Part shown: positions 1 through 63,924 of the stretch, piece by piece
How the letters are laid out: each line of letters opens with the position of its first letter
Numbering within the stretch: position 1 is the first letter of the stretch
Assembly (NCBI GenBank): GCA_009914755.4
Contig: CP086569.2
Span: forward strand, 55,904,001-55,968,000
DNA length: 64,000 nucleotides
Origin: the human T2T-CHM13v2.0 reference genome, Homo sapiens
Reading direction: 5' to 3'
Notes under the pieces: generated by a model
Told to the model about the DNA's origin: nothing
Databases searched by the model: none
What the model saw: the letters and a program-made list of their open reading frames with translations, nothing else
Position numbers and translations under genes: made by a program

Positions 1-43
1 ATCGAATGGAAAGGACTCGAATGGAAATCACTCGAATAGAATG

Positions 44-3000
44 CAATTTAATAAAATAGGATCAAATGTAATGGAATGGAATGGAAAGGAATCGAAACGA
101 AAGGAATGGAGACAGATGGAATGGAATGGAACAGAGAGCAATGGTATAGAATGGAATGGAATCATCTGGAATGGAATTGAATGGAATGGAATAATATGAA
201 ATGGAATGGAATGGAATGGAATGCCCTTGAATTAAATGGACTGGAATGGAATGGACTCGAACAGAGTGGAATGGAAAGTGTTGAGATAGAATGGAATGGA
301 CTCGTTTGGAATGGTCTAGTAGGCAATGCAATCGACTGGCAGGGAATCAAAAGGAATGTAATGGAATGGATTGGACTGGAATGCAATGGACTCGAATAGA
401 TTGGAAACGGAATGCAAAGGAATGGAATGGAATAGAATGGAATGGAATGGAAAGGAATGGAGTGGAATAGACTAGAGTGGAATGGAATGGACTGGAAAGC
501 AATAGACTGGAATGGAACTTTCTTGAATGGACTGGAATCAAACGGAATGGAATGCAATGCAATCAAATGGCATGGAATAAAATAGAATGAAAGAGAATCA
601 AATGGAATTGAATCGAATGGAATCGAATGGATTGGAAAGGAATAGAATGGTATGGAATGGAATTGACTCAAATGGAATGGACTAGAATGGAATGGATTCG
701 AATGGAAGGCAAAGGAATGGAATCTATTGGAATGGACTGTAATGGAATGGAATGGAAGGGATTGGAATGGACTCGAATGGAATGGACTGCAATAGAAAGG
801 ATTCGAATGGAATGAAAAAGAATTGAATGGAATAGAACAGAATGGAATCAAATCGAATGAAATGGAATGGAATAGAAAGGAATGGAATGAAATGGAATGG
901 AAAGGATTCGAATGGAATGCAATCGAATGGAATGGAATCGAACGGAATGGAATAAAATGGAAGAAAACTGGCAAGAAATGGAATCGAAATGAATGGAGTG
1001 TTATGGAACGGACTCAAAAGGAATTGAATGTAATAGAATGGAGTGGAGTGGACTCGAATATAATGGACTGGAATGGAATGAAATCACATGGAATGGGAAC
1101 GAATGGAATGGAATGGAAAGGAATGGAATCGAATGGAAAGGAATCGAATGGAAGGGAATGAAATTGAATCAACAGGAATGGAAGGGAATAGAATAGACGG
1201 TAATGGAATGGACTCGAATAGAATGGACACGAATGCTCAAATTGAATGGACTCGAATGGAATGGAAACGAAAGGAATGTCATCGAATGGAATTGAATCGA
1301 TTGGAATGAAATCGCATAGAATGGAGTGGAATCAAATGGAATTGAATCGAAAGGAAAGGAAGCGAATGGACTGAAATGAAATGGAATGGAATTGAATGGA
1401 AAGTAATGCAATGGAATAGAATGGAACGAAATTTCACGGAATGGAATCAAACTGAATGGAATCAAATCAATGGAATCAAATCAAATGGAATGGAAAGGAA
1501 TTGAATGGAGTAGATTGGATTGGATGGGATTGGAATGAAATGTACTGGAAAGGACTCGAATTTCATGAAACGGAATGGAATGAATTGGAACGGAATGGAC
1601 TCGAATGGAATGGAATGTCATGGAATGGCATCAAATGGAATGGCATCAAATGGAATGGAATCGAATGCAATGGAATGCTATGGAATGGAATGGAATGCAT
1701 TGGAATGGAATGTCCTCTAATGGAATGGATTCGAGTGGAATGGAATCGAATATAATGGAGTCGAATGAAATGGAATTGAAAAGAATGGGATCGAATACAA
1801 TGGAATATACTGGAATGTAATGTAATGAACTCGAATGTAATTGACTGGAATGGAATGTACATGAATGGAATGTAATCGAATGGAAAGTAATCCAATGGAA
1901 TAGAAACTAATGCAATAAAATCGACTCAAATAGAGTAGAATGTAATGGAATGGAGTGCAGTGCAATGGAATGGAATGGAATGGAATGCAATGGAATGGAA
2001 TGGAATGGAATGGAATGGGATGGAATGGTGTGGAATGGATAGTAATGGACTGGTGTGAAATGGACTGGAAAGGAATGGACTCAAATTGAAAGGGCTCGAA
2101 AGGAATGGAGTCAAATGGAATGGTCTGGAATGGAATGAACACGAATGTAATGCAATCCAATAGAATGGAATCGAATGGCATGGAATATAAAGAAATGGAA
2201 TCGAAGAGAATGGAAACAAATGGAATGGAATTGAATGGAATGGAATTGAATGGAATGGGAAGGAATGGAGTGAAATTGTATGCAGTAGAAGAGAATAGAA
2301 TGGAATGCAAGTGAAAGGAAAGGAATGGATTGGAATGGAATGGAATTCATTGGAATGGAAGGGAATGTAGTGTAATGGACAGGCCTGGAATAAAGTGGAA
2401 TGCTACGGTCTCGAATGGAATAAAAATGTATGGAATGGAATGCAATGAAACGGAATCGAATGTCATAGAATGTAATGGAATGCAACAAAATGGAATCCAA
2501 AATCATTGACTGGAAAGGCTGGGTGTCGAAAGGAATTGACTCCAATGGAATGGAATCGAATGGAATGGAAGTGAATAGAATCGAACTAAATCGAATGGAA
2601 AGGAATTGATAGGAACGGAATGGAAAGGAATGCAATGATTTGGCATGGAATGGAATCGAATGGCATCGAATGGAATGGAATGGAATGCAATGGAATGGAA
2701 TGTATTAGAATGTAATGAACTTTAATGGAATGTACTCGAATGGATTCGACTGGAATGGAATGTTCTGGAAGTGAATGGACTCCAATGGAATGGATTCAAA
2801 AGGAATGGAATCGTACGGAATGGAATCTAATGGAATGGAATTAAATGGAAATGAATCAAATTGAATAGCACGGAATTGAATTGAATGGAATGGAATGCAA
2901 TGGAATCTAATGAAACGGAAAGGAAAGGAATGGAATGGAATGGAATGGGCTGGAATGGAAAGGAATCGAAACGAATGGAATGGAATCGAACTGAAGAGAC

Positions 3001-3587
3001 TGGAATGGAATGCACTGGAATGGAAGGGAGTGTAATGGAAGGTTCTCGAAAAAAATGGAATCGAATGGAATGGAATTGAATGGAACGGAATAGAGTCGAA
3101 TGGAATTGAATGGAATGGAATGGACTAGAGTGAAATGGAATCGAACCACAAGGAATGGACAGGAATAGAATGGTCTCGAATTGAATGGAATCGTATGGAA
3201 TGGCATCAAACGGAATGGAATGGACAGCCACGGAATGGAATGCACTCGAATGCAATGGAGTCGAAACTAATGGACTGGAATAGAATGGACTCGACTGGTA
3301 CGGACTCCAATGGAATGGAATCGAATGGAAGGGAATCGAACGGAATGGACTCGAAGGGAAAAGACTGCAATGGAAAGGTCTCGAATGGAATGGAAATTAA
3401 TGGAATGGAATGGAATCGAATGAAATGGAGTCAAAAGGAATGGAATCGAATGGCAAGAAATCGAATGTAATGGAATCGCAAGGAATTGATGTGAACGGAA
3501 CGGAATGGAATGGAATCCAAAGGAATGGAATAGAATGGAATGGAATCGAATGGAAAGGACTCGAATGGAAATCACTCGAATAGAATG
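44..3587 (+). repeat. DYZ1-like HOR copy 1 (3544 bp; variant with the shorter (GGAAT) run before 'gcccttgaatt')
   Basis: Bounded by the 'atgcaatttaataaaatagg' anchor at 44 and at 3588. Confidence 0.8.
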
Positions 3588-6500
3588 CAATTTAATAAAA
3601 TAGGATCAAATGTAATGGAATGGAATGGAAAGGAATCGAAACGAAAGGAATGGAGACAGATGGAATGGAATGGAACAGAGAGCAATGGTATAGAATGGAA
3701 TGGAATCATCTGGAATGGAATTGAATGGAATGGAATAATATGAAATGGAATGGAATGGAATGGAATGCCCTTGAATTAAATGGACTGGAATGGAATGGAC
3801 TCGAACAGAGTGGAATGGAAAGTGTTGAGATAGAATGGAATGGACTCGTTTGGAATGGTCTAGTAGGCAATGCAATCGACTGGCAGGGAATCAAAAGGAA
3901 TGTAATGGAATGGATTGGACTGGAATGCAATGGACTCGAATAGATTGGAAACGGAATGCAAAGGAATGGAATGGAATAGTATGGAATGGAATGGAAAGGA
4001 ATGCAGTGGAATAGACTAGAGTGGAATGGAATGGACTGGAAAGCAATGGACTGGAATGGAACTTTCTTGAATGGACTGGAATCAAACGGAATGGAATGCA
4101 ATGCAATCAAATGGCATGGAATAAAATAGAATGAAAGAGAATCAAATGGAATTGAATCGAATGGAATCGAATGGATTGGAAAGGAATAGAATGGAATGGA
4201 ATGGAATTGACTCAAATGGAATGGACTAGAATGGAATGGATTCGAATGGAAGGCAAAGGAATGGAATCTATTGGAATGGACTGTAATGGAATGGAATGGA
4301 AGGGATTGGAATGGACTCGAATGGAATGGACTGCAATAGAAAGGATTCGAATGGAATGAAAAAGAATTGAATGGAATAGAACAGAATGGAATCAAATCGA
4401 ATGAAATGGAATGGAATAGAAAGGAATGGAATGAAATGGAATGGAAAGGATTCGAATGGAATGCAATCGAATGGAATGGAATCGAACGGAATGGAATAAA
4501 ATGGAAGAAAACTGGCAAGAAATGGAATCGAAATGAATGGAGTGTTATGGAACGGACTCAAAAGGAATTGAATGTAATAGAATGGAGTGGAGTGGACTCG
4601 AATATAATGGACTGGAATGGAATGAAATCACATGGAATGGGAACGAATGGAATGGAATGGAAAGGAATGGAATCGAATGGAAAGGAATCGAATGGAAGGG
4701 AATGAAATTGAATCAACAGGAATGGAAGGGAATAGAATAGACGGTAATGGAATGGACTCGAATAGAATGGACACGAATGCTCAAATTGAATGGACTCGAA
4801 TGGAATGGAAACGAAAGGAATGTCATCGAATGGAATTGAATCGATTGGAATGAAATCGCATAGAATGGAGTGGAATCAAATGGAATTGAATCGAAAGGAA
4901 AGGAAGCGAATGGACTGAAATGAAATGGAATGGAATTGAATGGAAAGTAATGCAATGGAATAGAATGGAACGAAATTTCACGGAATAAAATCAAACTGAA
5001 TGGAATCAAACCAATGGAATCAAATCAAATGGAATGGAAAGGAATTGAATGGAGTAGATTGGATTGGATGGGATTGGAATGAAATGTACTGGAAAGGACT
5101 CGAATTTCATGAAACGGAATGGAATGAATTGGAACGGAACGGACTCGAATGGAATGGAATGTCATGGAATGGCATCAAATGGAATGGCATCAAATGGAAT
5201 GGAATCGAATGCAATGGAATGCTATGGAATGGAATGGAATGCATTTTAATGGAATGTCCTCTAATGGAATGGATTCGAGTGGAATGGAATCGAATATAAT
5301 GGAGTCGAATGAAATGGAATTGAAAGGAATGGGATCGAATACAATGGAATATACTGGAATGTAATGTAATGAACTCGAATGTAATTGACTGGAATGGAAT
5401 GTACATGAATGGAATGTAATCGAATGGAAAGTAATCCAATGGAATAGAATCTAATGCAATAAAATCGACTCAGATAGAGTAGAATGTAATGGAATGGAGT
5501 GCAGTGCAATGGAATGGAATGGAATGGAATGCAATGGAATGGAATGGAATGGAATGGAATGGAATGGAATGGAATGGTGTGGAATGGATAGTAATGGACT
5601 GGAGTGAAATGGACTGGAAAGGAATGGACTCAAATTGAATGGGCTCGAAAGGAATGGAGTCAAATGGAATGGTCTGGAATGGAATGAACACGAATGTAAT
5701 GCAATCCAATAGAATGGAATCGAATGGCATGGAATATAAAGAAATGGAATCGAAGAGAATGGAAACAAATGGAATGGAATTGAGTGGAATGGAATTGAAT
5801 GGAATGGGAACCAATGGAGTGAAATTGTATGCAGTAGAAGAGAATAGAATGGAATGCAAGCGAAAGGAAAGGAATGGATTGGAATGGAATGGAATTCATT
5901 GGAATGGAAGGGAATGTAGTGTAATGGACAGGCCTGGAATAAAGTGGAATGCTACGGTCTCGAATGGAATAAAAATGTATGGAATGGAATGCAATGAAAG
6001 GGAATCGAATGTCATAGAATGTAATGGAATGCAACAAAATGGAATCCAAAATCATTGACTGGAAAGGCTGGGTGTCGAAAGGAATTGACTCCAATGGAAT
6101 GGAATCGAATGGAATGGAAGTGAATAGAATCGAACTAAATCGAATGGAATGGAATTGATAGGAACGGAATGGAAAGGAATGCAATGATTTGGCATGGAAT
6201 GGAATCGAATGGCATCGAATGGAATGGAATGGAATGCAATGGAATGGAATGTATTAGAATGTAATGAACTTTAATGGAATGTACTCGAATGGATTCGACT
6301 GGAATGGAATGTTCTGGAAGTGAATGGACTCCAATGGAATGGATTCAAAAGGAATGGAATCGTACGGAATGGAATCTAATGGAATGGAATTAAATGGAAA
6401 TGAATCAAATTGAATAGCACGGAATTGAATTGAATGGAATGGAATGCAATGGAATCTAATGAAACGGAAAGGAAAGGAATGGAATGGAATGGAATGGGCT

Positions 6501-7133
6501 GGAATGGAAAGGAATCGAAACGAATGGAATGGAATCGAACTGAAGAGACTGGAATGGAATGCACTGGAATGGAAGGGAGTGTAATGGAAGGTTCTCGAAA
6601 AAAATGGAATCGAATGGAATGGAATTGAATGGAACGGAATAGAGTCGAATGGAATTGAATGGAATGGAATGGACTAGAGTGAAATGGAATCGAACCACAA
6701 GGAATGGACAGGAATAGAATGGTCTCGAATTGAATGGAATCGTATGGAATGGCATCAAACGGAATGGAATGGACAGCCACGGAATGGAATGCACTCGAAT
6801 GCAATGGAGTCGAAACTAATGGACTGGAATAGAATGGACTCGACTGGTACGGACTCCAATGGAATGGAATCGAATGGAAGGGAATCGAACGGAATGGACT
6901 CGAAGGGAAAAGACTGCAATGGAAAGGTCTCGAATGGAATGGAAATTAATGGAATGGAATGGAATCGAATGAAATGGAGTCAAAAGGAATGGAATCGCAT
7001 GGCAAGAAATCGAATGTAATGGAATCGCAAGGAATTGATGTGAACGGAACGGAATGGAATGGAATCCAAAGGAATGGAATAGAATGGAATGGAATCGAAT
7101 GGAAAGGACTCGAATGGAAATCACTCGAATAGA
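3588..7133 (+). repeat. DYZ1-like HOR copy 2 (3546 bp)
   Basis: Anchor motif at 3588 and 7134. Confidence 0.8.
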
Positions 7134-10100
7134 ATGCAATTTAATAAAATAGGATCAAATGTAATGGAATGGAATGGAAAGGAATCGAAACGAAAGGAAT
7201 GGAGACAGATGGAATGGAATGGAACAGAGAGCAATGGTATAGAATGGAATGGAATCATCTGGAATGGAATTGAATGGAATGGAATAATATGAAATGGAAT
7301 GGAATGGAATGGAATGGAATGCCCTTGAATTAAATGGACTGTAATGGAATGGACTCGAACAGAGTGGAATGGAAAGTGTTGAGATAGAATGGAATGGACT
7401 CGTTTGGAATGGTCTAGTATGCAATGCAATCGACTGGCAGGGAATCAAAAGGAGTGTAATGGAATGGATTGGACTGGAATGCAATGGACTCGAATAGATT
7501 GGAAACGGAATGCAAAGGAATGGAATGGAATAGTATGGAATGGAATGGAAAGGAATGGAGTGGAATAGACTAGAGTGGAATGGAATGGACTGGAAAGCAA
7601 TAGACTGGAATGGAACTTTCTTGAATGGACTGGAATCAAACGGAATGGAATGCAATGCAATCAAATGGCATGGAATAAAATAGAATGAAAGAGAATCAAA
7701 TGGAATTGAATCGAATGGAATCGAATGGATTGGAAAGGAATAGAATGGAATGGAATGGAATTGACTCAAATGGAATGGACTAGAATGGAATGGATTCGAA
7801 TGGAAGGCAAAGGAATGGAATCTATTGGAATGGACTGTAATGGAATGGAATGGAAGGGATTGGAATGGACTCGAATGGAATGGACTGCAATAGAAAGGAT
7901 TCGAATGGAATGAAAAAGAATTGAATGGAATAGAACAGAATGGAATCAAATCGAATGAAATGGAGTGGAATAGAAAGGAATGGAATGAAATGGAATGGAA
8001 AGGATTCGAATGGAATGCAATCGAATGGAATGGAATCGAACGGAATGGAATAAAATGGAAGAAAACTGGCAAGAAATGGAATCGAAATGAATGGAGTGTT
8101 ATGGAACGGACTCAAAAGGAATTGAATGTAATAGAATGGAGTGGAGTGGACTCGAATATAATGGACTGGAATGGAATGAAATCACATGGAATGGGAACGA
8201 ATGGAATGGAATGGAAAGGAATGGAATCGAATGGAAAGGAATCGAATGGAAGGGAATGAAATTGAATCAACAGGAATGGAAGGGAATAGAATAGACGGTA
8301 ATGGAATGGACTCGAATAGAATGGACACGAATGCTCAAATTGAATGGACTCGAATGGAATGGAAACGAAAGGAATGTCATCGAATGGAATTGAATCGATT
8401 GGAATGAAATCGCATAGAATGGAGTGGAATCAAATGGAATTGAATCGAAAGGAAAGGAAGCGAATGGACTGAAATGAAATGGAATGGAATTGAATGGAAA
8501 GTAATGCAATGGAATAGAATGGAACGAAATTTCACGGAATGGAATCAAACTGAATGGAATCAAATCAATGGAATCAAATCAAATGGAATGGAAAGGAATT
8601 GAATGGAGTAGATTGGATTGGATGGGATTGGAATGAAATGTACTGGAAAGGACTCGAATTTCATGAAACGGAATGGAATGAATTGGAACGGAATGGACTC
8701 GAATGGAATGGAATGTCATGGAATGGCATCAAATGGAATGGCATCAAATGGAATGGAATCGAATGCAATGGAATGCTATGGAATGGAATGGAATGCATTG
8801 GAATGGAATGTCCTCTAATGGAATGGATTCGAGTGGAATGGAATCGAATATAATGGAGTCGAATGAAATGGAATTGAAAAGAATGGGATCGAATACAATG
8901 GAATATACTGGAATGTAATGTAATGAACTCGAATGTAATTGACTGGAATGGAATGTACATGAATGGAATGTAATCGAATGGAAAGTAATCCAATGGAATA
9001 GAAACTAATGCAATAAAATCGACTCAAATAGAGTAGAATGTAATGGAATGGAGTGCAGTGCAATGGAATGGAATGGAATGGAATGCAATGGAATGGAATG
9101 GAATGTTATGGAATGGAATGGAATGGATTGGAATGGGATGGAATGGTATGGAATGGATAGTAATGGACTGGAGTGAAATGGACTGGAAAGGAATGGACTC
9201 AAATTGAAAGGGCTCGAAAGGAATGGAGTCAAATGGAATAGTCTGGAATGGAATGAACACGAATGTAATGCAATCCAATAGAATGTAATCGAATGGCATG
9301 GAATATAAAGAAATGGAATCGAAGAGAATGGAAACAAATGGAATGGAATTGAATGGAATGGAATTGAATGGAATGGGAACGAATGGAGTGAAATTGTATG
9401 CAGTAGAAGAGAATAGAATGGAATGCAAGCGAAAGGAAAGGAATGGATTGGAATGGAATGGAATTCATTGGAGTGGAAGGGAATGTAGTGTAATGGACAG
9501 GCCTGGAATAAAGTGGAATGCTACGGTCTCGAATGGAATAAAAATGTATGGAATGGAATGCAATGAAAGGGAATCGAATGTCATAGAATGTAATGGAATG
9601 CAAAAAAATGGAATCCAAAATCATTGACTGGAAAGGCTGGGTGTCGAAAGGAATTGACTCCAATGGAATGGAATCGAATGGAATGGAAGTGAATAGAATC
9701 GAACTAAATCGAATGGAATGGAATTGATAGGAACGGAATGGAGAGGAATGCAATGATTTGGCATGGAATGCAATCGAATGGCATCGAATGGAATGGAATG
9801 GAATGCAATGGAATGGAATGTATTAGAATGTAATGAACTTTAATGGAATGTACTCGAATGGATTCGACTGGAATGGAATGTTCTGGAAGTGAATGGACTC
9901 CAATGGAATGGATTCAAAAGGAATGGAATCGTACGGAATGGAATCTAATGGAATGGAATTAAATGGAAATGAATCAAATTGAATAGCACGGAATTGAATT
10001 GAATGGAATGGAATGCAATGGAATCTAATGAAACGGAAAGGAAAGGAATGGAATGGAATGGAATGGGCTGGAATGGAAAGGAATCGAAACGAATGGAATG

Positions 10101-10702
10101 GAATCGAACTGAAGAGACTGGAATGGAATGCACTGGAATGGAAGGGAGTGTAATGGAAGGTTCTCGAAAAAAATGGAATCGAATGGAATGGAATTGAATG
10201 GAACGGAATAGAGTCGAATGGAATTGAATGGAATGGAATGGACTAGAGTGAAATGGAATCGAACCACAAGGAATGGACAGGAATAGAATGGTCTCGAATT
10301 GAATGGAATCGTATGGAATGGCATCAAACGGAATGGAATGGACAGCCACGGAATGGAATGCACTCGAATGCAATGGAGTCGAAACTAATGGACTGGAATA
10401 GAATGGACTCGACTGGTACGGACTCCAATGGAATGGAATCGAATGGAAGGGAATCGAACGGAATGGACTCGAAGGGAAAAGACTGCAATGGAAAGGTCTC
10501 GAATGGAATGGAAATTAATGGAATGGAATGGAATCGAATGAAATGGAGTCAAAAGGAATGGAATCGAATGGCAAGAAATCGAATGTAATGGAATCGCAAG
10601 GAATTGATGTGAACGGAACGGAATGGAATGGAATCCAAAGGAATGGAATAGAATGGAATGGAATCGAATGGAAAGGACTCGAATGGAAATCACTCGAATA
10701 GA
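7134..10702 (+). repeat. DYZ1-like HOR copy 3 (3569 bp; one extra GGAAT before 'gcccttgaatt'; 'ctgtaatgg' SNP)
   Basis: Anchor motif at 7134 and 10703. Confidence 0.8.
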
Positions 10703-13700: not shown

Positions 13701-14261
13701 AAGGGAGTGTAATGGAAGGTTCTCGAAAAAAATGGAATCGAATGGAATGGAATTGAATGGAACGGAATAGAGTCGAATGGAATTGAATGGAATGGAATGG
13801 ACTAGAGTGAAATGGAATCGAACCACAAGGAATGGACAGGAATAGAATGGTCTCGAATTGAATGGAATCGTATGGAATGGCATCAAACGGAATGGAATGG
13901 ACAGCCACGGAATGGAATGCACTCGAATGCAATGGAGTCGAAACTAATGGACTGGAATAGAATGGACTCGACTGGTACGGACTCCAATGGAATGGAATCG
14001 AATGGAAGGGAATCGAACGGAATGGACTCGAAGGGAAAAGACTGCAATGGAAAGGTCTCGAATGGAATGGAAATTAATGGAATGGAATGGAATCGAATGA
14101 AATGGAGTCAAAAGGAATGGAATCGAATGGCAAGAAATCGAATGTAATGGAATCGCAAGGAATTGATGTGAACGGAACGGAATGGAATGGAATCCAAAGG
14201 AATGGAATAGAATGGAATGGAATCGAATGGAAAGGACTCGAATGGAAATCACTCGAATAGA
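10703..14261 (+). repeat. DYZ1-like HOR copy 4 (3559 bp)
   Basis: Anchor motif at 10703 and 14262. Confidence 0.8.
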
Positions 14262-17200
14262 ATGCAATTTAATAAAATAGGATCAAATGTAATGGAATGG
14301 AATGGAAAGGAATCGAAACGAAAGGAATGGAGACAGATGGAATGGAATGGAACAGAGAGCAATGGTATAGAATGGAATGGAATCATCTGGAATGGAATTG
14401 AATGGAATGGAATAATATGAAATGGAATGGAATGGAATGGAATGGAATGCCCTTGAATTAAATGGACTGGAATGGAATGGACTCGAACAGAGTGGAATGG
14501 AAAGTGTTGAGATAGAATGGAATGGACTCGTTTGGAATGGTCTAGTATGCAATGCAATCGACTGGCAGGGAATCAAAAGGAATGTAATGGAAAGGATTGG
14601 ATAGGAATGCAATGGACTTGAATAGATTGGAAACGGAATGCAAAGGAATGGAATGGAATAGTATGGAATGGAATGGAAAGGAATGGAGTGGAATAGACTA
14701 GAGTGGAATGGAATGGACTGGAAAGCAATAGACTGGAATGGAACTTTCTTGAATGGACTGGAATCAAACGGAATGGAATGCAATGCAATCAAATGGCATG
14801 GAATAAAATAGAATGAAAGAGAATCAAATGGAATTGAATCGAATGGAATCGAATGGATTGGAAAGGAATAGAATGGAATGGAATGGAATTGACTCAAATG
14901 GAATGGACTAGAATGGAATAGATTCGAATGGAAAGCAAAGGAATGGAATCTATTGGAATGGACTGTAATGGAATGGAATGGAAGGGATTGGAATGGACTC
15001 GAATGGAATGGACTGCAATAGAAAGGATTCGAATGGAATGAAAAAGAATTGAATGGAATAGAACAGAATGGAATCAAATCGAATGAAATGGAGTGGAATA
15101 GAAAGGAATGGAATGAAATGGAATGGAAAGGATTCGAATGGAATGCAATCGAATGGAATGGAATCGAACGGAATGGAATAAAATGGAAGAAAACTGGCAA
15201 GAAATGGAATCGAAATGAATGGAGTGTTATGGAACGGACTCAAAAGGAATTGAATGTAATAGAATGGAGTGGAGTGGACTCGAATATAATGGACTGGAAT
15301 GGAATGAAATCACATGGAATGGGAACGAATGGAATGGAATGGAAAGGAATGGAATCGAATGGAAAGGAATCGAATGGAAGGGAATGAAATTGAATCAACA
15401 GGAATGGAAGGGAATAGAATAGACGGTAATGGAATGGACTCGAATAGAATGGACACGAATGCTGAAATTGAATGGACTCGAATGGAATGGAAACGAAAGG
15501 AATGTCATCGAATGGAATTGAATCGATTGGAATGAAATCGCATAGAATGGAGTGGAATCAAATGGAATTGAATCGAAAGGAAAGGAAGCGAATGGACTGA
15601 AATGAAATGGAATGGAATTGAATGGAAAGTAATGCAATGGAATAGAATGGAACGAAATTTCACGGAATGGAATCAAACTGAATGGAATCAAATCAATGGA
15701 ATCTAATCAAATGGAATGGAAAGGAATTGAATGGAGTAGATTGGATTGGATGGGATTGGAATGAAATGTACTGGAAAGGACTCGAATTTCATGAAACGGA
15801 ATGGAATGAATTGGAACGGAATGGACTCGAATGGAATGGAATGTCATGGAATGGCATCAAATGGAATGGCATCAAATGGAATGGAATCGAATGCAATGGA
15901 ATGTTATGGAATGGAATGGAATGCATTGGAATGGAATGTCCTCTAATGGAATGGATTCGAGTGGAATGGAATCGAATATAATGGAGTCGAATGAAATGGA
16001 ATTGAAAGGAATGGGATCGAATAGAATGGAATATACTGGAATGTAATGTAATGAACTCGAATGTAATTGACTGGAATGGAATGTACATGAATGGAAGGTA
16101 ATCGAATGGAAAGTAATCCAATGGAATAGAATCTAATGCAATAAAACCGACTCAGATAGTGTAGAATGTAATGGAATGGAGTGCAGTGCAATGGAATGGA
16201 ATGGAATTGAATGCAATGGAATGGAATGGAATGTTATGGAATGGAATGGAATGGATTGGAATGGGATGGAATGGTATGGAATGGATAGTAATGGACTGGA
16301 GTGAAATGGACTGGAAAGGAATGGACTCAAATTGAAAGGGCTCGAAAGGAATGGAGTCAAATGGAATAGTCTGGAATGGAATGAACACGAATGTAATGCA
16401 ATCCAATAGAATGTAATCGAATGGCATGGAATATAAAGAAATGGAATCGAAGAGAATGGAAACAAATGGAATGGAATTGAATGGAATGGAATTGAATGGA
16501 ATGGGAACGAATGGAGTGAAATTGTATGCAGTAGAAGAGAATAGAATGGAATGCAAGCGAAAGGAAAGGAATGGATTGGAATGGAATGGAATTCATTGGA
16601 ATGGAAGGGAATGTAGTGTAATGGACAGGCCTGGAATAAAGTGGAATGCTACGGTCTCGAATGGAATAAAAATGTATGGAATGGAATGCAATGAAAGGGA
16701 ATCGAATGTCATAGAATGTAATGGAATGCAACAAAATGGAATCCAAAATCATTGACTGGAAAGGCTGGGTGTCGAAAGGAATTGACTCCAATGGAATGGA
16801 ATCGAATGGAATGGAAGTGAATAGAATCGAACTAAATCGAATGGAATGGAATTGATAGGAACGGAATGGAGAGGAATGCAATGATTTGGCATGGAATGCA
16901 ATCGAATGGCATCGAATGGAATGGAATGGAATGCAATGGAATGGAATGTATTAGAATGTAATGAACTTTAATGGAATGTACTCGAATGGATTCGACTGGA
17001 ATGGAATGTTCTGGAAGTGAATGGACTCCAATGGAATGGATTCCAAAGGAATGGAATCGTACGGAATGGAATCTAATGGAATGGAATTAAATGGAAATGA
17101 ATCTAATTGAATAGCACGGAATTGAATTGAATGGAATGGAATGCAATGGAATCTAATGAAATGGAAAGGAAAGGAATGGAATGGAATGGAATGGGCTGGA

Positions 17201-17820
17201 ATGGAAAGGAATCGAAACGAATGGAATGGAATCGAACTGAAGAGACTGGAATGGAATGCACTGGAATGGAAGGGAGTGTAATGGAAGGTTCTCGAAAAAA
17301 ATGGAATCGAATGGAATGGAATTGAATGGAACGGAATAGAGTCGAATGGAATTGAATGGAATGGAATGGACTAGAGTGAAATGGAATCGAACCACAAGGA
17401 ATGGACAGGAATAGAATGGTCTCGAATTGAATGGAATCGTATGGAATGGCATCAAACGGAATGGAATGGACAGCCACGGAATGGAATGCACTCGAATGCA
17501 ATGGAGTCGAAACTAATGGACTGGAATAGAATGGACTCGACTGGTACGGACTCCAATGGAATGGAATCGAATGGAAGGGAATCGAACGGAATGGACTCAA
17601 AGGGAAAAGACTGCAATGGAAAGGTCTCGAATGGAATGGAAATTAATGGAATGGAATGGAATCGAATGAAATGGAGTCAAAAGGAATGGAATCGAATGGC
17701 AAGAAATCGAATGTAATGGAATCGCAAGGAATTGATGTGAACGGAACGGAATGGAATGGAATCCAAAGGAATGGAATAGAATGGAATGGAATCGAATGGA
17801 AAGGACTCGAATGGAAATCA
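14262..17820 (+). repeat. DYZ1-like HOR copy 5 (3559 bp)
   Basis: Anchor motif at 14262 and 17821. Confidence 0.8.
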
Positions 17821-20800
17821 CTCGAATAGAATGCAATTTAATAAAATAGGATCAAATGTAATGGAATGGAATGGAAAGGAATCGAAACGAAAGGAATGGA
17901 GACAGATGGAATGGAATGGAACAGAGAGCAATGGTATAGAATGGAATGGAATCATCTGGAATGGAATTGAATGGAATGGAATAATATGAAATGGAATGGA
18001 ATGGAATGGAATGGAATTCCCTTGAATTAAATGGACTGGAATGGAATGGACTCGAACAGAGTGGAATGGAAAGTGTTGAGATAGAATGGAATGGACTCGT
18101 TTGGAATGGTCTAGTATGCAATGCAATCGACTGGCAGGGAATCAAAAGGAATGTAATGGAATGGATTGGACTGGAATGCAATGGACTCGAATAGATTGGA
18201 AACGGAATGCAAAGGAATGGAATGGAATAGAATGGAATGGAATGGAAAGGAATGGAGTGGAATAGACTAGAGTGGAATGGAATGGACTGGAAAGCAATAG
18301 ACTGGAATGGAACTTTCTTGAATGGACTGGAATCAAACGGAATGGAATGCAATGCAATCAAATGGCATGGAATAAAATAGAATGAAAGAGAATCAAATGG
18401 AATTGAATCGAATGGAATCGAATGGATTGGAAAGGAATAGAATGGAATGGAATGGAATTGACTCAAATGGAATGGACTAGAATGGAATGGATTCGAATGG
18501 AAGGCAAAGGAATGGAATCTATTGGAATGGACTGTAATGGAATGGAATGGAAGGGATTGGAATGGACTCGAATGGAATGGACTGCAATAGAAAGGATTCG
18601 AATGGAATGAAAAAGAATTGAATGGAATAGAACAGAATGGAATCAAATCGAATGAAATGGAATGGAATAGAAAGGAATGGAATGAAATGGAATGGAAAGG
18701 ATTCGAATGGAATGCAATCGAATGGAATGGAATCGAACGGAATGGAATAAAATGGAAGAAAACTGGCAAGAAATGGAATCGAAATGAATGGAGTGTTATG
18801 GAACGGACTCAAAAGGAATTGAATGTAATAGAATGGAGTGGAGTGGACTCGAATATAATGGACTGGAATGGAATGAAATCACATGGAATGGGAACGAATG
18901 GAATGGAATGGAAAGGAATGGAATCGAATGGAAAGGAATCGAATGGAAGGGAATGAAATTGAATCAACAGGAATGGAAGGGAATAGAATAGACGGTAATG
19001 GAATGGACTCGAATAGAATGGACACGAATGCTCAAATTGAATGGACTCGAATGGAATGGAAACGAAAGGAATGTCATCGAATGGAATTGAATCGATTGGA
19101 ATGAAATCGCATAGAATGGAGTGGAATCAAATGGAATTGAATCGAAAGGAAAGGAAGCGAATGGACTGAAATGAAATGGAATGGAATTGAATGGAAAGTA
19201 ATGCAATGGAATAGAATGGAACGAAATTTCACGGAATGGAATCAAACTGAATGGAATCAAATCAATGGAATCAAATCAAATGGAATGGAAAGGAATTGAA
19301 TGGAGTAGATTGGATTGGATGGGATTGGAATGAAATGTACTGGAAAGGACTCGAATTTCATGAAACGGAATGGAATGAATTGGAACGGAATGGACTCGAA
19401 TGGAATGGAATGTCATGGAATGGCATCAAATGGAATGGCATCAAATGGAATGGAATCGAATGCAATGGAATGCTATGGAATGGAATGGAATGCATTGGAA
19501 TGGAATGTCCTCTAATGGAATGGATTCGAGTGGAATGGAATCGAATATAATGGAGTCGAATGAAATGGAATTGAAAAGAATGGGATCGAATACAATGGAA
19601 TATACTGGAATGTAATGTAATGAACTCGAATGTAATTGACTGGAATGGAATGTACATGAATGGAATGTAATCGAATGGAAAGTAATCCAATGGAATAGAA
19701 ACTAATGCAATAAAATCGACTCAAATAGAGTAGAATGTAATGGAATGGAGTGCAGTGCAATGGAATGGAATGGAATGGAATGCAATGGAATGGAATGGAA
19801 TGGAATGGAATGGGATGGAATGGTGTGGAATGGATAGTAATGGACTGGTGTGAAATGGACTGGAAAGGAATGGACTCAAATTGAAAGGGCTCGAAAGGAA
19901 TGGAGTCAAATGGAATGGTCTGGAATGGAATGAACACGAATGTAATGCAATCCAATAGAATGGAATCGAATGGCATGGAATATAAAGAAATGGAATCGAA
20001 GAGAATGGAAACAAATGGAATGGAATTGAATGGAATGGAATTGAATGGAATGGGAAGGAATGGAGTGAAATTGTATGCAGTAGAAGAGAATAGAATGGAA
20101 TGCAAGTGAAAGGAAAGGAATGGATTGGAATGGAATGGAATTCATTGGAATGGAAGGGAATGTAGTGTAATGGACAGGCCTGGAATAAAGTGGAATGCTA
20201 CGGTCTCGAATGGAATAAAAATGTATGGAATGGAATGCAATGAAACGGAATCGAATGTCATAGAATGTAATGGAATGCAACAAAATGGAATCCAAAATCA
20301 TTGACTGGAAAGGCTGGGTGTCGAAAGGAATTGACTCCAATGGAATGGAATCGAATGGAATGGAAGTGAATAGAATCGAACTAAATCGAATGGAAAGGAA
20401 TTGATAGGAACGGAATGGAAAGGAATGCAATGATTTGGCATGGAATGGAATCGAATGGCATCGAATGGAATGGAATGGAATGCAATGGAATGGAATGTAT
20501 TAGAATGTAATGAACTTTAATGGAATGTACTCGAATGGATTCGACTGGAATGGAATGTTCTGGAAGTGAATGGACTCCAATGGAATGGATTCAAAAGGAA
20601 TGGAATCGTACGGAATGGAATCTAATGGAATGGAATTAAATGGAAATGAATCAAATTGAATAGCACGGAATTGAATTGAATGGAATGGAATGCAATGGAA
20701 TCTAATGAAACGGAAAGGAAAGGAATGGAATGGAATGGAATGGGCTGGAATGGAAAGGAATCGAAACGAATGGAATGGAATCGAACTGAAGAGACTGGAA

Positions 20801-21379
20801 TGGAATGCACTGGAATGGAAGGGAGTGTAATGGAAGGTTCTCGAAAAAAATGGAATCGAATGGAATGGAATTGAATGGAACGGAATAGAGTCGAATGGAA
20901 TTGAATGGAATGGAATGGACTAGAGTGAAATGGAATCGAACCACAAGGAATGGACAGGAATAGAATGGTCTCGAATTGAATGGAATCGTATGGAATGGCA
21001 TCAAACGGAATGGAATGGACAGCCACGGAATGGAATGCACTCGAATGCAATGGAGTCGAAACTAATGGACTGGAATAGAATGGACTCGACTGGTACGGAC
21101 TCCAATGGAATGGAATCGAATGGAAGGGAATCGAACGGAATGGACTCGAAGGGAAAAGACTGCAATGGAAAGGTCTCGAATGGAATGGAAATTAATGGAA
21201 TGGAATGGAATCGAATGAAATGGAGTCAAAAGGAATGGAATCGAATGGCAAGAAATCGAATGTAATGGAATCGCAAGGAATTGATGTGAACGGAACGGAA
21301 TGGAATGGAATCCAAAGGAATGGAATAGAATGGAATGGAATCGAATGGAAAGGACTCGAATGGAAATCACTCGAATAGA
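17821..21379 (+). repeat. DYZ1-like HOR copy 6 (3559 bp)
   Basis: Anchor motif at 17821 and 21380. Confidence 0.8.
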
Positions 21380-24300
21380 ATGCAATTTAATAAAATAGGA
21401 TCAAATGTAATGGAATGGAATGGAAAGGAATCGAAACGAAAGGAATGGAGACAGATGGAATGGAATGGAACAGAGAGCAATGGTATAGAATGGAATGGAA
21501 TCATCTGGAATGGAATTGAATGGAATGGAATAATATGAAATGGAATGGAATGGAATGGAATGCCCTTGAATTAAATGGACTGGAATGGAATGGACTCGAA
21601 CAGAGTGGAATGGAAAGTGTTGAGATAGAATGGAATGGACTCGTTTGGAATGGTCTAGTAGGCAATGCAATCGACTGGCAGGGAATCAAAAGGAATGTAA
21701 TGGAATGGATTGGACTGGAATGCAATGGACTCGAATAGATTGGAAACGGAATGCAAAGGAATGGAATGGAATAGTATGGAATGGAATGGAAAGGAATGCA
21801 GTGGAATAGACTAGAGTGGAATGGAATGGACTGGAAAGCAATGGACTGGAATGGAACTTTCTTGAATGGACTGGAATCAAACGGAATGGAATGCAATGCA
21901 ATCAAATGGCATGGAATAAAATAGAATGAAAGAGAATCAAATGGAATTGAATCGAATGGAATCGAATGGATTGGAAAGGAATAGAATGGAATGGAATGGA
22001 ATTGACTCAAATGGAATGGACTAGAATGGAATGGATTCGAATGGAAGGCAAAGGAATGGAATCTATTGGAATGGACTGTAATGGAATGGAATGGAAGGGA
22101 TTGGAATGGACTCGAATGGAATGGACTGCAATAGAAAGGATTCGAATGGAATGAAAAAGAATTGAATGGAATAGAACAGAATGGAATCAAATCGAATGAA
22201 ATGGAATGGAATAGAAAGGAATGGAATGAAATGGAATGGAAAGGATTCGAATGGAATGCAATCGAATGGAATGGAATCGAACGGAATGGAATAAAATGGA
22301 AGAAAACTGGCAAGAAATGGAATCGAAATGAATGGAGTGTTATGGAACGGACTCAAAAGGAATTGAATGTAATAGAATGGAGTGGAGTGGACTCGAATAT
22401 AATGGACTGGAATGGAATGAAATCACATGGAATGGGAACGAATGGAATGGAATGGAAAGGAATGGAATCGAATGGAAAGGAATCGAATGGAAGGGAATGA
22501 AATTGAATCAACAGGAATGGAAGGGAATAGAATAGACGGTAATGGAATGGACTCGAATAGAATGGACACGAATGCTCAAATTGAATGGACTCGAATGGAA
22601 TGGAAACGAAAGGAATGTCATCGAATGGAATTGAATCGATTGGAATGAAATCGCATAGAATGGAGTGGAATCAAATGGAATTGAATCGAAAGGAAAGGAA
22701 GCGAATGGACTGAAATGAAATGGAATGGAATTGAATGGAAAGTAATGCAATGGAATAGAATGGAACGAAATTTCACGGAATAAAATCAAACTGAATGGAA
22801 TCAAACCAATGGAATCAAATCAAATGGAATGGAAAGGAATTGAATGGAGTAGATTGGATTGGATGGGATTGGAATGAAATGTACTGGAAAGGACTCGAAT
22901 TTCATGAAACGGAATGGAATGAATTGGAACGGAACGGACTCGAATGGAATGGAATGTCATGGAATGGCATCAAATGGAATGGCATCAAATGGAATGGAAT
23001 CGAATGCAATGGAATGCTATGGAATGGAATGGAATGCATTTTAATGGAATGTCCTCTAATGGAATGGATTCGAGTGGAATGGAATCGAATATAATGGAGT
23101 CGAATGAAATGGAATTGAAAGGAATGGGATCGAATACAATGGAATATACTGGAATGTAATGTAATGAACTCGAATGTAATTGACTGGAATGGAATGTACA
23201 TGAATGGAATGTAATCGAATGGAAAGTAATCCAATGGAATAGAATCTAATGCAATAAAATCGACTCAGATAGAGTAGAATGTAATGGAATGGAGTGCAGT
23301 GCAATGGAATGGAATGGAATGGAATGCAATGGAATGGAATGGAATGGAATGGAATGGAATGGAATGGAATGGTGTGGAATGGATAGTAATGGACTGGAGT
23401 GAAATGGACTGGAAAGGAATGGACTCAAATTGAATGGGCTCGAAAGGAATGGAGTCAAATGGAATGGTCTGGAATGGAATGAACACGAATGTAATGCAAT
23501 CCAATAGAATGGAATCGAATGGCATGGAATATAAAGAAATGGAATCGAAGAGAATGGAAACAAATGGAATGGAATTGAGTGGAATGGAATTGAATGGAAT
23601 GGGAACCAATGGAGTGAAATTGTATGCAGTAGAAGAGAATAGAATGGAATGCAAGCGAAAGGAAAGGAATGGATTGGAATGGAATGGAATTCATTGGAAT
23701 GGAAGGGAATGTAGTGTAATGGACAGGCCTGGAATAAAGTGGAATGCTACGGTCTCGAATGGAATAAAAATGTATGGAATGGAATGCAATGAAACGGAAT
23801 CGAATGTCATAGAATGTAATGGAATGCAAAAAAATGGAATCCAAAATCATTGACTGGAAAGGCTGGGTGTCGAAAGGAATTGACTCCAATGGAATGGAAT
23901 CGAATGGAATGGAAGTGAATAGAATCGAACTAAATCGAATGGAATGGAATTGATAGGAACGGAATGGAAAGGAATGCAATGATTTGGCATGGAATGGAAT
24001 CGAATGGCATCGAATGGAATGGAATGGAATGCAATGGAATGGAATGTATTAGAATGTAATGAACTTTAATGGAATGTACTCGAATGGATTCGACTGGAAT
24101 GGAATGTTCTGGAAGTGAATGGACTCCAATGGAATGGATTCAAAAGGAATGGAATCGTACGGAATGGAATCTAATGGAATGGAATTAAATGGAAATGAAT
24201 CAAATTGAATAGCACGGAATTGAATTGAATGGAATGGAATGCAATGGAATCTAATGAAACGGAAAGGAAAGGAATGGAATGGAATGGAATGGGCTGGAAT

Positions 24301-24928
24301 GGAAAGGAATCGAAACGAATGGAATGGAATCGAACTGAAGAGACTGGAATGGAATGCACTGGAATGGAAGGGAGTGTAATGGAAGGTTCTCGGAAAAAAT
24401 GGAATGGAATGGAATGGAATTGAATGGAACGGAATAGAGTCGAATGGAATTGAATGGAATGGAATGGACTAGAGTGAATTGGAATCGAACCACAAGGAAT
24501 GGACAGGAATAGAATGGTCTCGAATTGAATGGAATCGTATGGAATGGCATCAAACGGAATGGAATGGACAGCCACGGAATGGAATGCACTCGAATGCAAT
24601 GGAGTCGAAACTAATGGACTGGAATAGAATGGACTCGACTGGTACGGACTCCAATGGAATGGAATCGAATGGAAGGGAATCGAACGGAATGGAATCGGAG
24701 GGAAAAGACTGCAATGGAAAGGTCTCAAATGGAATGGAAATTAATGGAATGGAATGGAATCGAATGAAATGGAGTCAAAAGCAATGGAATCGAATGGCAA
24801 GAAATCGAATGTAATGGAATCGCAAGGAATTGATGTGAACGGAACGGAATGGAATGGAATCCAAAGGAATGGAATAGAATGGAATGGAATCGAATGGAAA
24901 GGACTCGAATGGAAATCACTCGAATAGA
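21380..24928 (+). repeat. DYZ1-like HOR copy 7 (3549 bp; near-identical to copy 2)
   Basis: Anchor motif at 21380 and 24929. Shares private variants with 3588-7133. Confidence 0.8.
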
Positions 24929-27900: not shown

Positions 27901-28452
27901 TTATGGAAGGTTCTCGAAAAAAATGGAATCGAATGGAATGGAATTGAATGGAACGGAATAGAGTCGAATGGAATTGAATAGAATGGAATGGACTAGAGTG
28001 AAATGGAATCGAACCACAAGGAATGGACAGGAATAGAATGGTCTCGAATTGAATGGAATCGTATGGAATGGCATCAAACGGAATGGAATGGACAGCCACG
28101 GAATGGAATGCACTCGAATGCAATGGAGTCGAAACTAATGGACTGGAATAGAATGGACTCGACTGGTACGGACTCCAATGGAATGGAATCGAATGGAAGG
28201 GAATCGAACGGAATGGACTCGAAGGGAAAAGACTGCAATGGAAAGGTCTCGAATGGAATGGAAATTAATGGAATGGAATGGAATCGAATGAAATGGAGTC
28301 AAAAGGAATGGAATCGAATGGCAAGAAATCGAATGTAATGGAATCGCAAGGAATTGATGTGAACGGAACGGAATGGAATGGAATCCAAAGGAATGGAATA
28401 GAATGGAATGGAATCGAATGGAAAGGACTCGAATGGAAATCACTCGAATAGA
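24929..28452 (+). repeat. DYZ1-like HOR copy 8 (3524 bp; carries a 15-bp deletion 'aattgactcaaatgg' near 25541)
   Basis: Anchor motif at 24929 and 28453. Confidence 0.8.
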
Positions 28453-31400: not shown

Positions 31401-32026
31401 AAAGGAATCGAAACGAATGGAATGGAATCGAACTGAAGAGACTGGAATGGAATGCACTGGAATGGAAGGGAGTGTAATGGAAGGTTCTCGAAAAAAATGG
31501 AATCGAATGGAATGGAATTGAATGGAACGGAATAGAGTCGAATGGAATTGAATGGAATGGAATGGACTAGAGTGAAATGGAATCGAACCACAAGGAATGG
31601 ACAGGAATAGAATGGTCTCGAATTGAATGGAATCGTATGGAATGGCATCAAACGGAATGGAATGGACAGCCACGGAATGGAATGCACTCGAATGCAATGG
31701 AGTCGAAACTAATGGACTGGAATAGAATGGACTCGACTGGTACGGACTCCAATGGAATGGAATCGAATGGAAGGGAATCGAACGGAATGGACTCGAAGGG
31801 AAAAGACTGCAATGGAAAGGTCTCGAATGGAATGGAAATTAATGGAATGGAATGGAATCGAATGAAATGGAGTCAAAAGGAATGGAATCGAATGGCAAGA
31901 AATCGAATGTAATGGAATCGCAAGGAATTGATGTGAACGGAACGGAATGGAATGGAATCCAAAGGAATGGAATAGAATGGAATGGAATCGAATGGAAAGG
32001 ACTCGAATGGAAATCACTCGAATAGA
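28453..32026 (+). repeat. DYZ1-like HOR copy 9 (3574 bp)
   Basis: Anchor motif at 28453 and 32027. Confidence 0.8.

Positions 32027-53494: not shown

Positions 53495-54542
<1,048 letters not shown>

Positions 54543-55109: not shown

Positions 55110-63924
<8,815 letters not shown>

What the first reader, a model, noticed from the sequence alone, without database searches (positions are those of the whole stretch)
1000..23700. Near-identical multi-kb block duplicated at an offset of exactly 17,795 bp (5 HOR copies)
Segment ~1.0-5.9 kb reappears at ~18.8-23.7 kb with rare private variants preserved. The shortened (GGAAT)n configuration around 1960-2040 / 19755-19835 gives the otherwise unique 197-aa artefactual ORF at 1717 and 19512. 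The 'LILFREISF' variant is shared at 4713 and 22508. The 'HCIPFHSIPYY...ALPTRPFQ' variants are shared at 3706 and 21501, and the 'STAFLSIPFHT' variant at 3891 and 21686. The intervening copies (7-18 kb) belong to a different subfamily. This points to a recent duplication spanning several HOR units, or a super-HOR of about 17.8 kb, layered on the 3.55-kb HOR.
Basis: seen in the sequence. Interest (0 to 1): 0.55.

Follow-up and report, generated by a model that had tools for sequence, protein, structure and literature searches.

The report
Recent five-unit duplication inside Y-chromosome DYZ1 satellite
The window is human Y-chromosome heterochromatin (a DYZ1 satellite array abutting a DYZ2 array), and the reported near-identical block is real. 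It is an ordinary trace of recent out-of-register recombination between repeat units five apart, a process already documented for this region.

Summary
**Observation: confirmed, and sharper than reported.**
- Window 652-5999 is 100% identical to 18447-23794: 5,348 bp at an offset of 17,795 bp.
- The whole visible block, 1-5999 vs 17791-23794, differs by two substitutions and one 5-bp indel, about 99.95% identity.
- Background identity between units is 99.0%. The next-longest exact repeat in the window is 1,407 bp.
- The block is cut by the window start and ends sharply at about 6.0 kb.

**Identity of the sequence.**
- 1-53493 fits DYZ1/HSat3A6: units of about 3.55 kb, one HaeIII site per unit, 38.7% GC and 1 CpG per 35.5 bp.
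- 53494-64000 fits DYZ2/HSat1B: a 2,420-bp unit with an Alu fragment and 23.9% GC.

**Interpretation: partly supported.**
- A recent five-unit out-of-register event fits the data. It is most likely an unequal sister-chromatid exchange that made a 17.8-kb tandem duplication, with the first copy lying mostly upstream of the window. A long conversion tract is the alternative.
- A periodic 17.8-kb super-HOR is not supported. Beyond about 6.6 kb the five-unit diagonal falls to background, and no third copy follows.

**Novelty and interest.** Unequal exchange, local duplications and gene conversion in Yq12 are already published. Low interest.

The parts
1..53493 (+). DYZ1 (HSat3A6) satellite array. 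It holds 15 units of about 3.55 kb derived from (GGAAT)n, starting at 1, 3545, 7094, 10663, 14222, 17791, 21340, 24889, 28413, 31987, 35550, 40947, 44476, 48049 and 51603. The last unit is truncated.
   Evidence: TRF finds a pentamer AATGG array at 65-53493. Anchor k-mer spacing is 3524-3574 bp. There is one GGCC (HaeIII) site in most units. GC is 38.7% with 1 CpG per 35.5 bp, matching the published DYZ1 values. The DYZ1 primer pair matches in nearly every unit (13 and 14 sites) and gives a 154-bp amplicon.
1..5999 (+). Copy A of the near-identical block: unit c1 plus the first 2,455 bp of c2. It is cut by the window start.
17791..23794 (+). Copy B of the near-identical block: unit c6 plus the first 2,455 bp of c7.
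652..5999 (+). Core of perfect identity, 5,348 bp, equal to 18447-23794 at offset 17,795.
   Evidence: It is the longest exact repeat in the window; the next longest is 1,407 bp.
5813..6000 (+). Right breakpoint interval in c2, homologous to 23608-23795 in c7. The last shared private variant is at 5812 and the first discordant site is at 6000.
   Evidence: In the variant table, at 6000 c2 carries the G of c3/c4/c5/c10 while c7 has the consensus C. Downstream, c7 has 6 private variants plus one shared only with c14 (24393-24782), and c2 is consensus-like. So c2 is the chimeric unit and c7 the intact one.
199..322 (+). Short patch in c1 that carries the c2/c7 states: one AATGG fewer, and G at 322. 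Its partner c6 (17989-18117) does not carry them. This is probably a secondary short conversion tract laid down after the main event.
   Evidence: The 322 G is found only in c1, c2 and c7.
53494..64000 (+). Flanking DYZ2 (HSat1B) array: a 2,420-bp unit with more than 85% AT sequence, an antisense Alu fragment and a GC-richer part.
   Evidence: Period 2,420 at 98.2% self-identity, GC 23.9% and 1 CpG per 154.5 bp. The Alu-like sequence lies at 54250-54540. GC peaks recur every 2.4 kb. Sub-threshold mir-1268 hits recur every 2,420 bp. All of this matches the published description.

Best explanation
**What the sequence is.** It is human Yq12 heterochromatin: the end of a DYZ1 (HSat3A6) array abutting a DYZ2 (HSat1B) array.

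**What happened (inferred).** Two sister chromatids, or one chromatid with itself, paired five 3.56-kb units out of register within the DYZ1 array and recombined.

**Favoured form.** The favoured form is an unequal sister-chromatid crossover that created a tandem duplication of one 17,795-bp segment.
- The junction between the two copies lies at about window 6000.
- The second copy is 6000-23794.
- The first copy would be -11,795 to 5999, so only its last 6 kb is visible. That visible part matches the last 6 kb of the second copy.
- Unit c2 is the recombinant joint and c7 is the intact original.

**Later changes (inferred).** A short conversion tract (199-322) and one point mutation (651) altered copy A.

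**Shown:** the identity, extent, right boundary and shared private variants.
**Inferred:** the crossover mechanism and the unseen upstream part.

The block has no function of its own. It is a snapshot of satellite turnover.
For: **DYZ1/DYZ2 identity**
- Unit lengths and HaeIII fragments of 3549, 3559 and 3569 bp. Hallast et al. report 3,569 bp as the modal fragment.
- GC and CpG densities equal the published values.
- The neighbouring repeat is 2,420 bp and Alu-bearing.
- The DYZ1 primer pair matches in nearly every unit.
- Contigs 98.9-99.3% identical sit in bacterial assemblies, and similar ones in a human gut metagenome, as expected for Y-satellite contamination.

**Recent common ancestry**
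- 5,348 bp are exact and about 99.95% identity holds over 5,999 bp, against a 99.0% background.
- There are 15 shared private variants.

**Sharp right boundary with an intact c7 and a chimeric c2**.

**The mechanism is documented in this region**
- The same array holds other small events: c3 and c4 are adjacent near-identical units, and c11 is an out-of-register recombinant unit.
Against: **Limited view.** Only 6 of the predicted 17.8 kb of copy-to-copy identity can be seen. The rest lies upstream of base 1, so the tandem-duplication form is untested.

**Clustered differences.** All three differences fall in the first 651 bp and none in the next 5,348 bp.
- Weighted for local mutability, p is about 0.003 for three events and about 0.02 if the indel and 322 count as one event.
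- This hints that the perfectly identical tract may have its own left boundary near 652. That would fit a conversion patch, or a second round of exchange, better than a single clean duplication.

**Other related units are isolated.** c10 vs c3/c4 is a single unit. Patchy transfer, or later trimming of larger duplications, therefore also occurs in this array.
Confidence: 0.55

Rival explanations
1. The block is a long-tract, non-reciprocal transfer: a gene conversion, SDSA/BIR-type copying or a double crossover. About 5.3 to more than 6 kb was copied from c6-c7 into c1-c2, two positions five units apart, without changing the number of units.
For: - The identity tract visible in the window spans only about 1.7 units.
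- The differences cluster left of 652, suggesting a left boundary there.
- c7 is intact and c2 chimeric, which fits c6-c7 as donor.
- c10 is an isolated single-unit relative of c3/c4.
- Pedigree data attribute about 17% of de novo Yq12 SNV events to intra-array gene conversion.
- A short secondary tract is visible at 199-322.
Against: - c1 and c6 still share a private variant at 436, left of the supposed boundary.
- From my own knowledge, tracts longer than 5 kb are long for human gene conversion.
- The left flank cannot be seen.
Confidence: 0.33
2. The block is part of a true 17.8-kb super-HOR: five DYZ1 units form a larger unit repeated three or more times, with the remaining copies upstream of the window.
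For: The offset is an exact multiple of five units, and the block runs into the window start, so upstream copies cannot be excluded.
Against: Downstream there is no third copy. c6-c10 vs c11-c15, and c3:c8, c4:c9 and c5:c10, are all at background. No other diagonal shows multi-unit periodicity.
Confidence: 0.05
3. The block is an assembly artefact: a false local duplication or mis-join in a satellite array that is hard to assemble.
For: Perfect identity over 5.3 kb, at a spacing close to a HiFi read length, is the kind of pattern a mis-assembly can produce. Recent population assemblies still flag errors in Yq12.
Against: - The two copies are not identical throughout. There are three differences near the left end, and two of them match real variant states seen in c2/c7.
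- The right boundary coincides with sites that are polymorphic among units, not with an arbitrary break.
- Unit phase is preserved exactly.
Confidence: 0.05
4. The shared variants are chance coincidences among units that are 99% identical anyway.
For: Units are all about 99% identical, so a casual reading overestimates similarity.
Against: At 1% divergence, a 5,348-bp mismatch-free run has probability of about e^-53. The block is an extreme outlier among 612 comparisons.
Confidence: 0.01

Closest known systems
DYZ1 / HSat3A6 arrays of human Yq12, alternating with DYZ2 / HSat1B (Rhie et al. T2T-Y; Hallast et al., 43 Y assemblies)
   Same: It has the pentamer-derived unit of about 3.55 kb, a single HaeIII site per unit, 38.7% GC and 1 CpG per 35.5 bp. 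It abuts a 2,420-bp AT-rich repeat carrying an Alu fragment. Units become more divergent towards the array edge.
   Different: Nothing differs at the family level. Which individual and which of the alternating Yq12 arrays this is cannot be determined here.
Recent tandem duplications and expansions in Yq12 by unequal exchange (T2T-Y, Extended Data Fig. 8)
   Same: An exact long match lies off the main diagonal at a whole number of repeat units, in the same orientation and with phase preserved.
   Different: The scale differs. The published examples range from events within sub-arrays up to 5 Mb spanning many arrays. This one is 17.8 kb (five units) inside a single array, and only 6 kb of it is visible.
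Intra-array gene conversion in Yq12 seen in father-son transmissions (PMC13252187)
   Same: Variant states are transferred between non-adjacent units of the same array. The 199-322 patch in c1 looks like such a short tract.
   Different: The main block is at least 5.3 kb long. The published de novo events were detected as single or clustered SNVs.
Alpha-satellite higher-order repeats and 'super-HOR' layering in centromeres
   Same: Variation is nested and multi-level within a tandem array.
   Different: No periodic recurrence was found. Only one pair of copies exists in the window.

Membership tests
DYZ1 / HSat3A6 (human Yq12) | Derived from the pentamer GGAAT/TTCCA (CATTC) | tested here: met
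   TRF reports a period-5 AATGG array at 65-53493. There are 125-141 GGAAT per 2 kb on the + strand and essentially none on the - strand.
DYZ1 / HSat3A6 (human Yq12) | Nested repeat unit of about 3.5-3.6 kb | tested here: met
   Unit lengths are 3524-3574 bp, with one 5,397-bp variant. Published values are about 3.5 kb, 3,564 bp and a modal 3,569 bp.
DYZ1 / HSat3A6 (human Yq12) | One HaeIII (GGCC) site per unit, giving the classical 3.4-3.57-kb male-specific fragment | tested here: met
   GGCC spacing is 3549, 3569, 3559, 3569, 3549, 3549, 3524 and 3574 bp, and so on. One site is lost in c10 and one is gained in c14.
DYZ1 / HSat3A6 (human Yq12) | Base composition of about 38% GC with about 1 CpG per 35 bp | tested here: met
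   38.7% GC and 1 CpG per 35.5 bp, against the values in Hallast et al..
DYZ1 / HSat3A6 (human Yq12) | Arrays alternate with DYZ2/HSat1B (about 2.4 kb; AT-rich plus Alu fragment; 24% GC; 1 CpG per 150 bp) | tested here: met
   53494-64000 has a period of 2,420 bp, 23.9% GC, 1 CpG per 154.5 bp and an antisense Alu-like segment.
DYZ1 / HSat3A6 (human Yq12) | Matches the classical DYZ1 sexing primers (154-bp product) | tested here: met
   The primers match in convergent orientation in nearly every unit: 13 and 14 sites with 0-1 mismatch, one primer missing in c10. An example amplicon is 2246-2399, 154 bp. The primer sequences were recalled from memory and were not found in the paper library, so treat this as supporting evidence only.
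DYZ1 / HSat3A6 (human Yq12) | Physical location on the human Y long arm | not testable with these tools
   No human genome is available to the tools. Indirect support: contigs 98.9-99.3% identical occur as contaminants in bacterial assemblies, and similar contigs occur in a human gut metagenome. This is what the T2T-Y paper reports for Y HSat3/HSat1B.
Super-HOR (periodic multi-unit repeat) | Three or more tandem copies of the multi-unit period, with position-specific variants recurring at that period | tested here: not met
   On the five-unit diagonal only c1:c6 and about the first 70% of c2:c7 are near-identical. All other pairs are at background, and the ten-unit diagonal is also at background. 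Upstream of the window is not testable.
Tandem segmental duplication by unequal crossover | Two adjacent copies that are near-identical over the whole duplicated length (here 17.8 kb), with one recombinant junction unit | tested here: inconclusive
   The recombinant junction unit (c2) and the right end are seen. Only 6.0 of the 17.8 kb of copy-to-copy identity lies inside the window.
Gene-conversion patch | An identity tract flanked on both sides by background divergence, with unit number unchanged | tested here: inconclusive
   The right flank reaches background from 6598. The left flank is cut by the window start. Differences cluster at 224-651, but a shared private variant remains at 436.

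The most novel reading that the evidence does not exclude
The 17.8-kb relation is the visible end of a locally periodic five-unit super-repeat, with three or more copies extending upstream. That would mean part of this DYZ1 array is being amplified in five-unit blocks rather than in single units.
Probability: 0.06. Interest if true: 0.25.

Novelty: already known. Interest (0 to 1): 0.1.

Why it matters
It matters little beyond bookkeeping. The block is a clean, small-scale example of how Yq12 satellite arrays turn over.

- An out-of-register exchange five units apart left a 5.3-kb tract with no differences at all.
- A short conversion patch and pentamer slippage followed.
- Such blocks could serve as markers for dating or tracking array rearrangements between Y haplogroups.
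- They are also places where read mapping and assembly validation need care.

The block reveals no new element, gene or mechanism.

Tried and rejected
**Coding potential: rejected.** The long minus-strand ORFs, including the 197-aa one, give no Pfam match above threshold, only low-complexity Extensin and pentapeptide noise. From my own reading, they exist because (ATTCC)n lacks stop codons.

**Exact-product look-ups: nothing found.** The 197-, 174- and 305-aa ORF products are not on record in public assemblies.

**Search for the c2/c7-specific 51-mer (4975-5025): 0 hits** in genome contigs and in metagenome contigs. The variant haplotype could not be traced elsewhere.

**Scan with a conserved DYZ1 23-mer.**
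- It returned 6 contaminated bacterial contigs and 33 metagenome loci.
- The three long contigs (52-55 kb) are noisy, at 91-98% identity with hundreds of gaps, and are held only in part.
- They cannot resolve 99.0% from 99.9%, and so cannot test the five-unit periodicity.

**Literature confirmation of the primers: not found** in the held library.

**Super-HOR: rejected within the window**.

**Chance similarity: rejected**.
Full report
**What the window is.**

Bases 1-53493 are a single array derived from the pentamer GGAAT. TRF reports a period-5 AATGG array at 65-53493, and there are 125-141 GGAAT per 2 kb on the + strand only.

Anchor k-mers recur every 3524-3574 bp. They define 15 units:
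- c1-c15 start at 1, 3545, 7094, 10663, 14222, 17791, 21340, 24889, 28413, 31987, 35550, 40947, 44476, 48049 and 51603.
- One unit is aberrant at 5,397 bp, and the last is truncated.

Several measurements match the published description of DYZ1:
- Each unit has one HaeIII site, giving fragments of 3549, 3559 and 3569 bp.
- GC is 38.7%, with one CpG per 35.5 bp.
- Hallast et al. give for DYZ1 a unit of about 3.5 kb, a modal HaeIII fragment of 3,569 bp, 38% GC and 1 CpG per 35 bp. The classical description is a 3.4-kb HaeIII fragment and a 3,564-bp unit of TTCCA repeats.
- The classical DYZ1 primer pair, which I recalled from memory and could not confirm in the paper library, matches in convergent orientation in nearly every unit and gives a 154-bp amplicon.

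At 53494 the sequence switches to a different repeat:
- Its period is 2,420 bp, with 98.2% self-identity, 23.9% GC and one CpG per 154.5 bp.
- It is made of more than 85% AT sequence, an antisense Alu fragment and a GC-richer part.
- Sub-threshold hits to mir-1268 recur once per unit. From my own knowledge that microRNA family is Alu-derived.
- This is the published description of DYZ2/HSat1B, which alternates with DYZ1 in Yq12.

A conserved DYZ1 23-mer retrieves contigs in six 'bacterial' assemblies that are 98.9-99.3% identical to the window. It also retrieves metagenome contigs, including one titled human gut metagenome. The T2T-Y paper reports exactly this kind of Y-satellite contamination.

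I conclude with high confidence that the window is a DYZ1-to-DYZ2 boundary of human Yq12.

**Check of the observation.**

I aligned 1-10700 to 17791-28490 base by base:
- Up to 5999 there are only three differences: a 5-bp indel at 224, G/T at 322/18117 and T/A at 651/18446.
- 652-5999 equals 18447-23794 exactly, which is 5,348 bp at offset 17,795.
- Mismatches follow at 6000 and 6035, and background density resumes from 6598.

The block is an extreme outlier in this array:
- The 5,348-bp exact repeat is the longest in the window, and the next is 1,407 bp.
- Units differ from each other by a median of 36 substitutions (range 3-57; mean identity 99.0%). c1:c6 differ by 3 and c2:c7 by 10.
- In 612 sliding 6-kb comparisons on diagonals of 1-12 units, the block scores 3-4 differences. 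The median is 68 and the 5th percentile 33. The best window outside this block scores 16.

The variant table shows that the pairs are true sisters:
- c1 and c6 share private variants at 436, the 5-bp deletion at 1989, 2054, 2262 and 2601.
- c2 and c7 share private variants at 4004, 4987, 4988, 5011, 5246, 5247, 5568, 5640, 5784 and 5812.

- The 197-aa ORF occurs only at 1717-2310(-) and 19512-20105(-).
- The peptide strings occur in pairs 17,795 bp apart, with one extra ALPTRPFQ at 306-329.

The block starts at or before base 1 and ends at 5999.

**Anatomy of the event.**

*Right boundary.*
- The last shared private variant is at 5812.
- At 6000, c2 switches to the G carried by c3, c4, c5 and c10, while c7 keeps the consensus base.
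- Downstream, c7 carries six private variants and one shared only with c14 (24393-24782), whereas c2 is consensus-like.
- c7 is thus divergent along its whole length and looks intact. c2 is a chimera joined somewhere in 5813-6000.

*Left side.*
- The block runs into the window start.
- The indel at 224 and the SNV at 322 both give c1 the states of c2/c7. The G at 322 occurs only in c1, c2 and c7.
- One short secondary conversion tract (199-322) from a c2/c7-type unit explains both differences.
- The T at 651 is private to c1 and is a simple mutation.
- All three differences fall in the first 651 bp and none in the next 5,348 bp. This is unlikely under uniform decay: p is about 0.003 for three events and about 0.02 for two, weighted for local variability.
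- The perfect tract may therefore have its own left edge near 652. Against that, c1 and c6 still share a private variant at 436.

**Super-HOR?**

No periodic super-repeat appears in the window. On the five-unit diagonal, the differences per quarter unit read 4 0 0 0 | 0 0 2 8, then 14 6 18 10 and background thereafter. The ten-unit diagonal is also at background. c3:c8, c4:c9 and c5:c10 differ by 45, 23 and 26 substitutions. Whether more copies lie upstream cannot be tested with the sequence available.

**Mechanism.**

A 17,795-bp tandem duplication made by an unequal sister-chromatid crossover would place its junction at about 6000.
- The second copy would be 6000-23794.
- The first copy would be -11,795 to 5999.
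- This predicts exactly what is seen: the last 6 kb of each copy are identical, the boundary at 6000/23795 is sharp, c2 is chimeric and c7 intact.
- It also predicts about 11.8 kb more identity upstream of the window.

I favour this form (0.55) for two reasons:
- Unequal exchange is the documented mode of Yq12 evolution. The T2T-Y paper reports iterative tandem duplications, smaller expansions and deletions, and sister-chromatid exchanges in about 15% of Strand-seq libraries.
- A conversion tract longer than 5 kb would be unusually long, from my own knowledge.

The main rival (0.33) is a non-reciprocal long-tract transfer from c6-c7 into c1-c2. Three observations support it:
- The differences cluster at the left end.
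- Isolated single-unit relatives exist in the same array, such as c10 vs c3/c4.
- Pedigree data show gene conversion in Yq12.

The remaining rivals are less likely:
- An assembly artefact (0.05) is unlikely because the copies differ at biologically sensible sites. It cannot be excluded without reads.
- A periodic super-HOR gets 0.05.
- Chance is excluded.

**Comparison with what is known, and verdict.**

Everything here falls within published knowledge of Yq12: alternating DYZ1 and DYZ2 arrays, units more than 98% identical, more divergent units at array edges, unequal exchange and gene conversion. The window shows the same gradient. Private variants rise from 0-6 variant columns per unit in c1-c4, c6, c7, c9 and c10 (c5 has 11) to 11-15 in c8 and c11-c14, and to 22 in the half-unit c15 at the boundary.

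The specific 17.8-kb event is an ordinary instance of a known process. Novelty: already known. Interest: about 0.1. The single decisive step is to read the 18-36 kb upstream of the window.

Noticed in passing
window 35550-40946 (unit c11): This is an aberrant 5,397-bp DYZ1 unit. HOR positions of about 203-2037 are present twice (35753-37586 and 37587-39420). The two halves differ at 20 sites (1.1%, background level). Both breakpoints lie in pure (AATGG)n runs. It looks like an out-of-register recombinant between two different units, not a fresh duplication.
   Followed up: partly
window 7094-14221 (c3, c4) and 31987-35549 (c10): c3 and c4 are adjacent units differing by only 3 substitutions and one 10-bp indel, which indicates a one-unit tandem duplication. 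c10, six to seven units away, differs from them by only 8-9 substitutions and is an isolated single-unit relative.
   Followed up: partly
window 24889-28412 (c8) and 40947-44475 (c12): These two units share two 15-bp deletions and several private substitutions, yet differ from each other at 38 sites. This indicates an older duplication at an offset of 16,058 bp.
   Followed up: no
window 53493/53494: This is the DYZ1-to-DYZ2 junction. The last DYZ1 unit is cut at about HOR position 1,890 and joins directly to the AT-rich part of a DYZ2 unit. Units become more divergent towards this edge: c15 has 22 private variant columns in 1.9 kb. A noisy long-read metagenome contig (L019, BNJU01004413.1) aligns in one piece across the same junction, 49211-55151 at 94.7%.
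   Followed up: partly
window ~34389 (c10) and 50135 (c14): c10 has lost its HaeIII site, and one DYZ1 primer site, through a 1-bp deletion (GGCC to GG-C). Together with the long c11 unit this gives an 8,966-bp HaeIII fragment. c14 has gained a second GGCC 305 bp upstream of the normal one.
   Followed up: partly
L001-L006 (genome contigs), e.g. BMRF01000076.1 'Actinomadura cremea JCM 3308', NZ_JBFAJD010000109.1 'Streptomyces sp.': Contigs of 1-3.6 kb in six bacterial or MAG assemblies are 98.9-99.3% identical to this DYZ1 array. This is human Y-satellite contamination of microbial records, as described in the T2T-Y paper.
   Followed up: partly
window 54349-54415, 56769-56835, 59189-59255, 61609-61675 (- strand): Sub-threshold Rfam hits to mir-1268 (34-38 bits against a gathering score of 83) recur once per DYZ2 unit, inside the Alu-like segment. 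They most likely reflect the Alu fragment (my own knowledge that mir-1268 is Alu-derived), not a microRNA gene.
   Followed up: no
window HOR positions ~200 and ~1960-2040 of every unit (e.g. 199-223, 1989, 7293): The pure (AATGG)n runs are hotspots for 5- and 10-bp length changes. They show homoplasy between otherwise unrelated units, and they are also the breakpoints of the c11 rearrangement.
   Followed up: partly
window 1-53493, minus strand: There are 39 ORFs of 150-313 aa on the minus strand. From my own reading, they arise because (ATTCC)n-like sequence has few stop codons. Pfam shows only sub-threshold low-complexity matches, so they are not genes.
   Followed up: yes
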